The notes beneath the pieces are model-generated. The model was not told the origin of the DNA. It saw nothing but the letters and a program-made list of their open reading frames with translations, and ran no database searches. Of a DNA stretch of 64,000 bases, positions 37,778 through 38,272 are shown one piece after another (position 1 is the first letter of the stretch; every line of letters starts with the position of its first letter). The position numbers and the translations under genes were made by a program. The stretch comes from a virus (lineage: Duplodnaviria; Heunggongvirae; Uroviricota; Caudoviricetes): IMG/VR virus record IMGVR_UViG_2609459826_000002, one strand, 5' to 3'.

Positions 37778-38272
37778 CTATAATCCAACGACCTCATCCC
37801 CGATATTAGTCAAAATCATTAATTCTTTAATCTCTCGTTGTGCCAACTGTAATTCAAACTGCTCTTGAATTAACATCCACTTCGACCAACTTCCACCGAC
37901 TACATGCGATAATCGGAGTGCCATAGCTTTCGTCAGTGAAACTGAACCGTTCAACAATTCAACTATCTCTTGCTCGCGACATCCCATGTAAACCGAAAAT
38001 TTATTCAGTCCTATATTTGATACCGCTAGTATTTCGGCCAGTTTAATGCCGGGATGATCAGGAAGTAAGGTCATGCCGTATTCATCCTGATAAATTCCAT
38101 AAATAGAACAGCCAGTTTCTCTCAGTTCTCGTAAATTCTTCCCTGCAAACTTCAGCTCGTGTGAAAGCCCGAGAAACTCACCAGTAAATTCATATTCTGC
38201 TTCAGGCCTATGGTGGCATTTGATCAATGCAAATGCCGCCCCTACTTTCTCAACTGTTACAGTAACCGACAT
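37778..38272 (-). CDS. HigA-family HTH protein with ~65-aa N-terminal extension
   Basis: C-terminal HPGIKLAEILAVSNIGLNKFSVYMGCREQEIVELLNGSVSLTKAMALRLSHVVGGSWSKWMLIQEQFEL matches HigA/XRE antitoxin pattern; 34 bp downstream of hsdR. Confidence 0.6.
   Translation of the reverse strand: MSVTVTVEKVGAAFALIKCHHRPEAEYEFTGEFLGLSHELKFAGKNLRELRETGCSIYGIYQDEYGMTLLPDHPGIKLAEILAVSNIGLNKFSVYMGCREQEIVELLNGSVSLTKAMALRLSHVVGGSWSKWMLIQEQFELQLAQREIKELMILTNIGDEVVGL

What the first reader, a model, noticed from the sequence alone, without database searches (positions are those of the whole stretch)
37778..38272. Orphan HigA-like antitoxin homolog with N-terminal extension directly downstream of hsdR
The C-terminal ~95 aa match the HigA/XRE antitoxin pattern, but there is no HigB/RelE-like toxin ORF upstream; instead a ~65-aa unrecognised N-terminal domain is fused in frame. 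The likely co-transcription with the type I R-M operon suggests a regulatory or antidote role linked to the R-M system or orf395.
Basis: partly seen in the sequence, partly recalled or inferred. Interest (0 to 1): 0.45.

Follow-up and report, generated by a model that had tools for sequence, protein, structure and literature searches.

The report
Toxin-less HigA-like protein ending R-M operon
The last gene of a type I restriction-modification operon on a mobile island encodes an uncharacterised 164-residue protein: an antitoxin-type (HigA) DNA-binding domain joined to a 66-residue domain with no detectable relatives, with no toxin gene beside it, so it is most likely a solo regulator rather than an antidote.

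Summary
ORF 37778-38272 (-) is a real 164-aa gene, 34 nt after hsdR, with a GGAGG ribosome-binding site before the upstream ATG and a hairpin terminator after it.

- **C-terminal domain:** residues ~67-150 are a HigA/VapI-type XRE helix-turn-helix by sequence and by predicted fold.
- **N-terminal domain:** residues 1-66 match nothing in Pfam, NCBIfam, PADLOC, PHROGs or PDB. An exhaustive scan of 1.84 billion representative proteins found no relatives either. The segment is invariant over residues 4-51 in most alleles examined, from six genera, and varies mainly at third codon positions.
- **No toxin:** no higB exists in any frame of the 64-kb window, and the N-terminal domain is not a HigB remnant.
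- **Linkage:** the gene always follows one hsdR lineage, with or without the embedded DUF4268 gene. Sister hsdR lineages lack it.
- **Natural knockout:** an IS disruption leaves the R-M and DUF4268 genes annotated intact, so it is not an essential antidote.
- **Atypical helix:** its recognition helix is unusually acidic.

It is most likely a solitary HigA-family regulator or accessory protein of the operon; function is inferred only. RefSeq already annotates it (WP_006809979.1). It is a new variant of a known kind, of modest interest.

The parts
37778..38272 (-). Complete CDS of the 164-aa protein ('HTH164'; RefSeq WP_006809979.1, 'helix-turn-helix transcriptional regulator')
   Evidence: ORF list. 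PGAP annotates the same 495-nt CDS in E. coli PD7. The frame is intact in 12 loci from Escherichia, Enterobacter, Citrobacter, Yersinia, Serratia and a metagenome.
38075..38272 (-). Codons 1-66: lineage-restricted N-terminal domain with no detectable homologues
37835..38062 (-). Residues 71-146: HigA/VapI-type XRE helix-turn-helix domain
   Evidence: TIGR02607 at E 8.9e-12. PDB 3cec, 2icp, 3trb and 4mcx. PHROG 1381 'plasmid antitoxin with HTH domain' at 6e-9. Foldseek top 35 hits are almost all HigA/GraA/PA4674. The predicted recognition-helix segment GCREQEIVEL has net charge -2, against a mean of +0.9 in 48 homologues.
38273..38306 (-). hsdR-HTH164 intergenic spacer (34 nt) with Shine-Dalgarno GGAGG at 38280-38284, 7 nt before the ATG
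   Evidence: Sequence. Only 1 substitution in 34 nt against the 90%-identity lineage L005.
38291..38318 (-). Weak sigma-70-like site (TGGACA-16-GATTAT) overlapping the hsdR stop; a possible own promoter
   Evidence: Consensus scan only, 9 of 12 matches. Not evidence of function.
37723..37749 (-). Hairpin (9-bp stem TGGCCTTTC/GAAAGGCCA, 9-nt loop) followed by TTTCTGT on the operon strand: the likely terminator of the hsd-HTH164 transcription unit
   Evidence: Inverted repeat I2. It is conserved in all five aligned loci, including L005, whose sequence diverges immediately after it.
38212..38240 (.). 11-bp-arm inverted repeat inside codons 11-21; significance unknown
   Evidence: It is conserved, but the surrounding RNA fold is not unusual (z = 0.56). 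A repeat of this kind is expected by chance at roughly 0.2 per region by my estimate.
38307..41438 (-). hsdR (1043 aa), the gene immediately upstream and the constant partner of HTH164
   Evidence: The Pfam domains of the orthologue are HSDR_N, ResIII and T1RH-like_C. It is only distantly related to EcoR124I HsdR (E 1e-28). It is a mosaic of recombination blocks.
41438..42625 (-).
   Evidence: It is not always present with HTH164.
42618..45774 (-). hsdS (42618-44036) and hsdM (44023-45774; the likely true start is the second ATG near 45735)

Best explanation
HTH164 is a single two-domain cytoplasmic protein translated from the ATG at 38272. Its C-terminal half is a HigA/VapI-family XRE helix-turn-helix domain. 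Its N-terminal 66 residues form a young, lineage-restricted domain of unknown fold.

The gene is the last cistron, or an immediately adjacent satellite gene, of one lineage of type I R-M operon: hsdM-hsdS-(DUF4268)-hsdR. That operon is carried in the cargo slot of CP4-57-like integrative islands of Enterobacterales.

I propose that it works as a solitary, toxin-less HigA-family regulator. It would dimerise through the HigA domain and bind DNA to tune expression of itself and/or the defence cargo. The N-terminal domain would serve as a partner- or signal-binding module.

Shown here: the anatomy, the translated status of both domains, the absence of a toxin gene, the constant linkage to this hsdR lineage, and dispensability. 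Inferred: DNA binding, dimerisation, regulatory targets and the role of the N-terminal domain.
For: **Domain identity.**

**The long form is real.**
- A strong ribosome-binding site precedes the upstream ATG.
- The N-terminal region is invariant over residues 4-51 in most alleles examined.
- Variation is biased to third codon positions (3/2/11), and dN/dS is 0.18-0.27 for the N-terminal half and 0.14-0.15 for the C-terminal half.
- The two halves share composition, GC3 36 versus 40.

**No toxin.**
- The HigB profile finds nothing in the window; best E is 1.2.
- The N-terminal domain scores -0.9 bits against the HigB profile, and 604 of 2000 shuffles score at least as well.
- By contrast, the nearest stand-alone homologues (P0019, P0023) have a PF05015 higB immediately upstream.

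**Linkage to hsdR.**
- Every intact locus has HTH164 34 nt after hsdR: E. coli, Enterobacter, C. freundii, Yersinia, Serratia and a metagenome contig.
- The downstream neighbour varies: yfjJ, or an IS1 remnant plus a JukA-like cassette.
- That cassette occurs elsewhere without HTH164.

**Transcription-unit signals.**

**Precedent.** Type I R-M islands can carry a dedicated small repressor; RptR is one (PMC12255303).

**Solo HigA-like proteins exist.** E. coli YbaQ (PDB 2eby) appears among the hits. That it lacks a partner toxin is from my own knowledge.
Against: - No operator was found. The hsdM promoter block is equally conserved in a sister operon that lacks HTH164 (L011), and no HTH164-specific palindrome appears.
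- The recognition helix is unusually acidic: net charge -2, or -3 in the second lineage, with only 1 of 48 homologues that low. The whole protein has pI 5.4. DNA binding may therefore be weak, unusual or lost.
- GC3 of HTH164 (39) differs sharply from hsdM, DUF4268 and hsdR (64-69), so it is not an old co-evolving part of the operon.
- Sister hsdR lineages work without it: 82% and 77% nucleotide identity.
- Strains with IS-disrupted copies persist.
- No expression or binding data exist.
Confidence: 0.4

Rival explanations
1. Evolutionary leftover or 'anti-addiction' orphan antitoxin. A former HigBA-type module lost its toxin, and the HigA part, fused to unrelated sequence, persists. It either has no role in the R-M system or neutralises HigB-like toxins of competing plasmids and phages in trans.
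For: The HigA family identity and the missing toxin. The gene is often hit by IS elements and tolerated as fragments. Its composition differs from the R-M genes. Orphan antitoxins on mobile elements have been proposed to counter toxin-antitoxin systems of hosts or rival elements (PMC11541004).
Against: Both domains are under purifying selection, and the frame is kept in all 7 alleles across six genera. The 34-nt junction with hsdR, the ribosome-binding site and the terminator are conserved as a unit. The N-terminal domain shows no trace of HigB. The best stand-alone HigA relatives are only 35-37% identical, so no cognate toxin family can be named.
Confidence: 0.25
2. Protein-level modulator of the R-M complex. 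HTH164 binds HsdR (or HsdM, or DUF4268) and delays or alleviates restriction, for example when the island enters a new unmethylated host. It could instead couple the complex to a phage trigger. The acidic HTH domain would be used for protein contacts rather than DNA.
For: The gene is constantly placed directly after hsdR, in the toxin-then-antitoxin gene order typical of higBA. It has an atypically acidic recognition helix and an acidic protein overall. The hsdR 3' end, spacer and N-terminal coding segment form the most conserved stretch between diverged lineages, at 93-98% against 77-91% in most neighbouring 100-nt blocks.
Against: E. coli VREC0761 carries an ISEc33-disrupted copy with all four upstream genes annotated intact, so it is not needed for viability. 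Sister operons lack it. No interaction evidence exists. The conservation peak may simply be a recombination block.
Confidence: 0.15
3. Fused single-chain toxin-antitoxin or sensor-effector. The N-terminal 66 aa would be a small toxin or effector held in check in cis by the HigA domain, or by a short isoform started at Met67.
For: The N-terminal domain has about the length of small toxins. An internal ATG (Met67) sits exactly at the start of the HigA domain, and a 98-aa 'orf98' form has been deposited.
Against: Truncated alleles that keep the N-terminal domain but lose the HTH domain are stable and widespread. These include P0003 with 76 member sequences, the VREC0761 fragment of 87 aa, and the IS1-cut copies on Klebsiella plasmids. 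There is no similarity to HigB or to any toxin family in Pfam, PADLOC or PDB. The Shine-Dalgarno-like AGGA before Met67 is 11 nt away, which is poor spacing.
Confidence: 0.05
4. Regulator of a downstream defence cassette (JukA-like/PDDEXK_4/217-aa) that has been deleted in this window, leaving the regulator stranded.
For: In Yersinia and Serratia the cassette follows HTH164 on the same strand.
Against: An IS1 remnant separates the two in those loci. The same cassette lies 35 nt after an unrelated hsdR with no HTH164 in E. coli ET776. HTH164 occurs without the cassette in E. coli, Enterobacter and Citrobacter. A conserved terminator hairpin follows HTH164.
Confidence: 0.05

Closest known systems
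HigA / VapI antitoxins of higBA modules (TIGR02607; PDB 3cec, 2icp/2ict, 3trb, 4mcx, 6chv, GraA 6f8h)
   Same: The C-terminal 80-95 residues have the same fold and family signature (HPG...LNG...ALRL...W..LQ). Foldseek TM is 0.72-0.87 normalised by the target.
   Different: - There is no higB partner.
- The protein is 164 aa rather than ~95-105 aa because of an unrelated N-terminal domain.
- The score is below the NCBIfam equivalog cut-off.
- The recognition helix is acidic.
- The gene follows hsdR instead of a toxin.
RptR, RMS-proximal transcriptional regulator of type I R-M defence islands (PMC12255303)
   Same: Both are small HTH proteins genetically tied to a type I R-M operon that has another defence gene embedded between hsdS and hsdR. 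RptR is the functional precedent for operon-dedicated regulators.
   Different: - RptR is 79 aa, sits upstream of the operon and binds TAGCTA-type repeats in the promoter.
- HTH164 is 164 aa, HigA-like and sits downstream of hsdR.
- None of the four RptR site variants is present in the 356 nt upstream of hsdM here, by reading the sequence printed.
- No RptR chain appeared among the PDB sequence hits (E<=1) or the 50 best fold hits listed.
Controller (C) proteins of type II R-M systems (e.g. C.BclI, PDB 2b5a)
   Same: Both are XRE-type HTH proteins encoded inside an R-M unit. The fold match is weak: E 1e-2, TM 0.70-0.72 normalised by the target.
   Different: C proteins are ~80 aa, lie upstream of or overlapping the endonuclease gene, and act on C-boxes. 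HTH164 is downstream of hsdR, has an extra domain and has no C-box-like palindrome.
MqsA-type two-domain antitoxins (my own knowledge)
   Same: The overall layout is shared: an N-terminal domain of about 65 aa plus a C-terminal XRE HTH, with the gene placed after the gene of the toxic partner.
   Different: MqsA's N-terminal domain is a zinc domain with two CxxC pairs that binds MqsR. HTH164 has no CxxC motif, no sequence similarity (no PDB hit for residues 1-72) and no MqsR-like gene.
Solitary HigA-like XRE proteins of E. coli such as YbaQ (PDB 2eby)
   Same: Both are toxin-less HigA-fold proteins presumed to be transcription factors. YbaQ is among the hits.
   Different: The similarity is very distant (E 0.11). 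YbaQ has no N-terminal extra domain and is not linked to R-M genes.

Membership tests
HigA antitoxin (type II higBA module; NCBIfam TIGR02607 equivalog) | Sequence reaches the curated family threshold | tested here: not met
   44.7 bits against a cut-off of 47.7, at E 8.9e-12. This is clear homology at domain level, but below the equivalog threshold. RefSeq now names the protein only 'helix-turn-helix transcriptional regulator'. Older records say 'HigA family addiction module antidote protein'.
HigA antitoxin (type II higBA module; NCBIfam TIGR02607 equivalog) | HigA-type XRE helix-turn-helix fold | tested here: met
   The AlphaFold model has pLDDT 89-97 for residues 71-150. The top Foldseek hits 3trb, 3cec, 2ict, 9chn and 6chv give TM 0.77-0.87 normalised by the target.
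HigA antitoxin (type II higBA module; NCBIfam TIGR02607 equivalog) | Cognate HigB/RelE-fold toxin gene adjacent (normally immediately upstream) | tested here: not met
   The upstream gene is hsdR, and the downstream neighbour is a terminator plus convergent yfjJ. The HigB HMM against the six-frame window gives a best E of 1.2. The nearest stand-alone homologues do have PF05015 upstream.
HigA antitoxin (type II higBA module; NCBIfam TIGR02607 equivalog) | Autorepression through palindromic operators in its own promoter | tested here: inconclusive
   No convincing palindrome lies in the 34-nt spacer or the hsdM promoter. There is only a weak promoter-like site. Binding was not testable.
HigA antitoxin (type II higBA module; NCBIfam TIGR02607 equivalog) | Neutralises a toxin; loss is deleterious when the toxin is present | tested here: not met
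   The gene is disrupted by ISEc33 in E. coli VREC0761 while the neighbouring genes are annotated intact. Truncated alleles are common. Direct neutralisation is not testable with these tools.
HigB-HigA gene fusion (N-terminal domain = degenerate HigB) | N-terminal residues 1-66 detectably related to HigB (PF05015) | tested here: not met
   A profile of 110 HigB sequences scores the N-terminal domain at -0.9 bits, and 604 of 2000 shuffles score at least as well.
R-M controller (C) proteins | Small (~80 aa) HTH gene upstream of or overlapping the endonuclease gene, with C-box operators | tested here: not met
   The gene lies downstream of hsdR, encodes 164 aa and has no C-box-like repeat. There is only a weak fold match to C.BclI.
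RptR family | 79-aa regulator upstream of hsdM/hsdR, with two or more TAGCTA-type sites in the promoter | tested here: not met
   Position and size differ (PMC12255303). None of the four site variants TAGCTA, TAGATA, TATCTA or TATATA is present in the 356 nt upstream of hsdM printed. Direct sequence comparison with RptR was not done.
Known anti-phage defence components (PADLOC-DB v2) | Match to a defence-system protein model | tested here: not met
   There were 0 families at E<=1 for HTH164, while the neighbouring DUF4268 protein matches PDC-S11 at 2.5e-174.

The most novel reading that the evidence does not exclude
HTH164 is a previously unrecognised fourth or fifth component of a type I R-M system. 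Its orphan N-terminal domain would bind HsdR or a phage- or entry-derived signal. Its acidic, HigA-derived domain would have been re-purposed from DNA binding to protein binding or DNA mimicry. The protein would then control restriction activity post-translationally, for example as self-encoded restriction alleviation during establishment of the island in a new host, a process known for type IA/IB systems only through host ClpXP (my own knowledge).
Probability: 0.1. Interest if true: 0.6.

Novelty: new variant of a known kind. Interest (0 to 1): 0.3.

Why it matters
How defence islands are regulated is poorly known, and only a few dedicated regulators have been described (RptR, BrxR-type and C proteins). 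A toxin-less HigA-derived protein fixed to the 3' end of one type I R-M lineage would add another example of antitoxin domains being recruited as defence-island accessories. Its 66-residue domain has no relatives among about 15 billion proteins.

The practical value is modest. The family is narrow: 26 of 5,426 complete E. coli genomes, plus a few other Enterobacterales. It is dispensable, and no phenotype is known. The finding also corrects database habits, because the 'HigA addiction module antidote' label implies a toxin partner that does not exist here.

Tried and rejected
1. **N-terminal domain as a degenerate HigB.** By eye, 'SHELKF' and 'IYGIYQDEYG' resemble HigB's 'LHELKGD' and 'YILNLEDYH'. 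This was rejected: the profile score is no better than shuffles.
2. **N-terminal fold assignment.**
   - Two AlphaFold runs gave pLDDT 54-62 and 52.5, and disagree on residues 10-19.
   - afdb50 was unavailable.
3. **Weak sequence hits treated as chance.**
   - TrkA_C at E 0.019 and KH_1 at E 0.21.
   - DotG/IcmE repeats at E 0.008, summed over weak repeat matches.
   - AbrB/MazE- or HicA-like resemblance seen by eye got no Pfam support.
4. **RNA element in the highly conserved 5' part.** The fold z-score is 0.56 and there is no Rfam match.
5. **Operator search.**
   - The internal palindrome GCATTTG-N7-CAAATGC is unique in the window but not significant on its own.
   - A shared 10-mer, GATCAAATGC, occurs about 130 nt upstream of hsdM in L003. 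It also occurs in L011, which lacks the gene.
   - The hsdM promoter alignment shows no HTH164-specific motif.
6. **Regulator of the JukA-like cassette.** Rejected.
7. **Obligate partner of DUF4268.** Rejected.
8. **More distant family members.** The genome-contig scan and the plasmid and phage tblastn searches found only copies of at least 90% identity, or unrelated HigA proteins.
9. **Citrobacter murliniae locus (L004).** It shows many frameshifts in the R-M genes. I could not tell decay from sequencing error, so it was not used.

Full report
**1. What is there**

- The minus-strand ORF 37778..38272 encodes 164 aa.
- It begins 34 nt after the stop of a 1043-aa hsdR (38307..41438).
- hsdR is preceded by three genes with overlapping start and stop codons: a DUF4268 gene (41438..42625), hsdS (42618..44036) and hsdM (44023..45774).
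- The spacer reads TAAAACGTTCATCGATTATCTTGACGGAGGTGGTTCA-ATG. It therefore has a GGAGG Shine-Dalgarno 7 nt before the ATG.
- After the stop codon there is a 9-bp-stem hairpin (37723-37749) followed by TTTCTGT on the operon strand. Then comes the convergent yfjJ-like gene, which ends at 37704.
- No other ORF of 20 aa or more is free in the neighbourhood.
- RefSeq annotates exactly this CDS as WP_006809979.1, 'helix-turn-helix transcriptional regulator'. Older records call it 'HigA family addiction module antidote protein'. A 98-aa version starting at Met67 ('orf98') has also been deposited.

**2. The two halves**

*C-terminal half (HigA-like).*
- Residues 71-146 match NCBIfam TIGR02607 (HigA) at E 8.9e-12, but score 44.7 bits against a cut-off of 47.7.
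- They match PDB HigA/VapI chains, with 3cec at 3.8e-8, and PHROG 1381.
- An AlphaFold model built with 50 sequences gives pLDDT 89-97 for this half.
- Foldseek returns HigA, GraA and PA4674 structures with TM 0.72-0.87 normalised by the target.

*N-terminal half (orphan).*
- Residues 1-66 match nothing significant in Pfam, NCBIfam, PADLOC, PHROGs or PDB.
- An exhaustive HMMER scan of 1.84 billion cluster representatives returned, for this part, only fragments of the same protein.
- Structure prediction failed for it. pLDDT was 54-62 in the full model and 52.5 alone, with conflicting secondary structure for residues 10-19. Fold searches were meaningless.

**3. Is the N-terminal extension real?**

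Yes, on present evidence.
- Besides the ribosome-binding site, 7 distinct alleles from 12 loci all keep the 164-codon frame.
- Those loci come from E. coli, Enterobacter, Citrobacter, Yersinia enterocolitica, Serratia liquefaciens and a metagenome.
- Variable sites in codons 1-66 fall 3, 2 and 11 at codon positions 1, 2 and 3.
- dN/dS against the ~90%-identical lineage is 0.18-0.27 for the N-terminal half and 0.14-0.15 for the C-terminal half. The counts are small: 4.5-5.5 non-synonymous against 5.5-6.5 synonymous changes in the N-terminal half.
- Residues 4-51 are invariant in most aligned proteins.
- Both halves have the same low GC3, 36 and 40.
- The AGGA before Met67 is 11 nt away, a poor spacing. 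An additional short isoform cannot be excluded.

**4. No toxin**

- I built a HigB (PF05015) profile from 110 sequences. They were recovered via the higB genes that sit immediately upstream of the nearest stand-alone homologues of the HTH domain.
- The profile finds nothing in the six-frame translation of the whole 64-kb window; the best E is 1.2.
- It scores the N-terminal domain no better than shuffled versions: -0.9 bits, with 604 of 2000 shuffles at least as good.
- The resemblances I saw by eye to HigB motifs are therefore chance.

**5. Distribution and context**

*How common it is.*
- The gene is rare: 26 of 5,426 complete E. coli genomes, 21 of them with at least 80% coverage.
- All known members are at least 90% identical. 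They form one 90%-identity cluster of 251 sequences.

*Linkage to hsdR.*
- In every intact locus the gene lies 34 nt after the same hsdR lineage.
- The linkage is to hsdR, not to DUF4268. C. freundii p6_A has hsdM-hsdS-hsdR-HTH164 with no DUF4268.
- Nor is it linked to the downstream neighbour. That is yfjJ here, but an IS1 remnant plus a JukA-like/PDDEXK_4/217-aa cassette in Yersinia and Serratia.
- That cassette also occurs directly after an unrelated hsdR without HTH164.
- Sister hsdR lineages (82% and 77% nucleotide identity, both with DUF4268) carry other genes in that position: a UvrD-like helicase, and an unrelated 165-aa membrane protein.

*Evolutionary pattern.*
- hsdR is a patchwork of recombination blocks. 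The dS between the window and L015 is 0.56 and against L016 is 0.73, whereas HTH164 differs by 1 nt from L015.
- The segment from the hsdR 3' end through the spacer and N-terminal codons is the best-conserved stretch against the distant lineage.
- GC3 of HTH164 (39) resembles the island backbone (yfjJ 33), not hsdM, DUF4268 or hsdR (64-69).
- The gene therefore probably joined this operon secondarily.

**6. Dispensability**

- E. coli VREC0761 has ISEc33 inserted near codon 84. This leaves an 87-aa N-terminal fragment, while hsdM, hsdS, DUF4268 and hsdR are annotated intact.
- Similar truncated alleles are frequent, for example P0003 with 76 member sequences.
- IS1-cut copies of codons 1-62 circulate on Klebsiella plasmids.
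- This argues against an essential antidote for HsdR or DUF4268.
- It also argues against the N-terminal domain being a toxin held in check by the C-terminal domain.

**7. Mechanism**

- The most economical reading is a solitary HigA-family regulator or accessory protein expressed with, or right after, the hsd operon. The N-terminal domain would be a partner- or signal-binding module.
- Type I R-M defence islands are known to carry dedicated regulators. RptR is a 79-aa repressor placed upstream of an operon that has DarTG2 embedded between hsdS and hsdR (PMC12255303).
- I could not find an operator. The hsdM promoter block is conserved equally in the sister operon lacking HTH164. None of the RptR site variants occurs in the sequence printed. 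The internal 11-bp-arm inverted repeat at 38212-38240 is conserved but not statistically compelling. The 5' region shows no unusual RNA fold or Rfam match.
- The predicted recognition-helix segment (GCREQEIVEL) has net charge -2, or -3 in the second lineage, against a mean of +0.9 in 48 homologues. Only one homologue is as low.
- DNA binding may therefore be atypical or lost. This keeps alive a protein-level role towards the R-M complex.

**8. Verdict**

- Its interpretation is partly supported. The orphan HigA-like protein with a novel N-terminal domain, probably co-transcribed with hsdR, stands. A link to orf395 or an antidote role is not supported.
- The protein is already annotated but uncharacterised. 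It fails the defining features of a HigA antitoxin other than the fold.
- I file it as a new variant of a known kind, a HigA-derived XRE protein recruited to a type I R-M operon. Interest is modest.

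Noticed in passing
window 41438-42625 (-): A DUF4268 protein (PADLOC candidate system PDC-S11, E 2.5e-174; weak PD-(D/E)XK signal in residues 50-127) is embedded between hsdS and hsdR with overlapping start and stop codons. This is the slot occupied by PrrC or DarTG2 in other type I operons. The otherwise same operon in C. freundii p6_A lacks it.
   Followed up: partly
window 46099-46881 and 47049-50279: An IS1 copy cuts the island about 325 nt upstream of hsdM (inverted-repeat pair 46099-46151, transposase ORF 46378-46881). It removes the HTH/GNAT genes seen upstream in relatives. A raffinose-type cluster follows, with a LacI-family regulator and a melibiase.
   Followed up: partly
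window 32215-37704: The backbone is that of a CP4-57-like integrative element: two tyrosine recombinases in tandem (32215-33378, 33543-34931), an AlpA-like gene (35500-35721), a 254-aa gene (35857-36621) and a YagK/YfjJ gene (37084-37704). The R-M operon occupies the variable cargo slot between yfjJ and, in relatives, a YfjP-like GTPase.
   Followed up: partly
L016 9929-13232 (Yersinia enterocolitica), L019 (Serratia), L022 6190-9485 (E. coli ET776): A three-gene cassette follows HTH164 in Yersinia and Serratia, after an IS1 remnant. It comprises a 615-aa protein whose N-terminus matches PADLOC JukA (E 3e-46; RefSeq 'YaaW family'), a 251-aa PDDEXK_4/PDC-S26-like nuclease, and a 217-aa protein with no family. 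In E. coli ET776 the cassette follows an unrelated hsdR directly. It is probably an undescribed Juk-related defence system.
   Followed up: partly
L012 6441-6938 (E. coli NQ3): A 165-aa predicted membrane protein, unrelated to HTH164, lies 55 nt after a 77%-identical hsdR of a DUF4268-containing operon. So the position after hsdR is a variable accessory slot.
   Followed up: no
window 38307-41438 versus L001, L003, L015, L016, L019: hsdR is a mosaic: 100-nt blocks alternate between 74-85% and 98-100% identity among loci. This indicates frequent recombination inside the gene.
   Followed up: partly
L013 5001-5207 and other Klebsiella IncF/IncR plasmids: Codons 1-62 of HTH164, 100% identical, are cut by IS1 and carried on many Klebsiella plasmids. 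They sit next to remnants of the R-M operon and two DUF262 (GmrSD-like) genes.
   Followed up: partly
window 45990-46075: Two direct copies of AACCGACCAGAC, with an inverted GTCTGG between them, lie about 250-290 nt upstream of hsdM. The same sequence is present in E. coli PD7 (L001) but not in the Yersinia/Serratia loci or L003. It may be a binding site for the 200-aa HTH protein encoded upstream in relatives.
   Followed up: no
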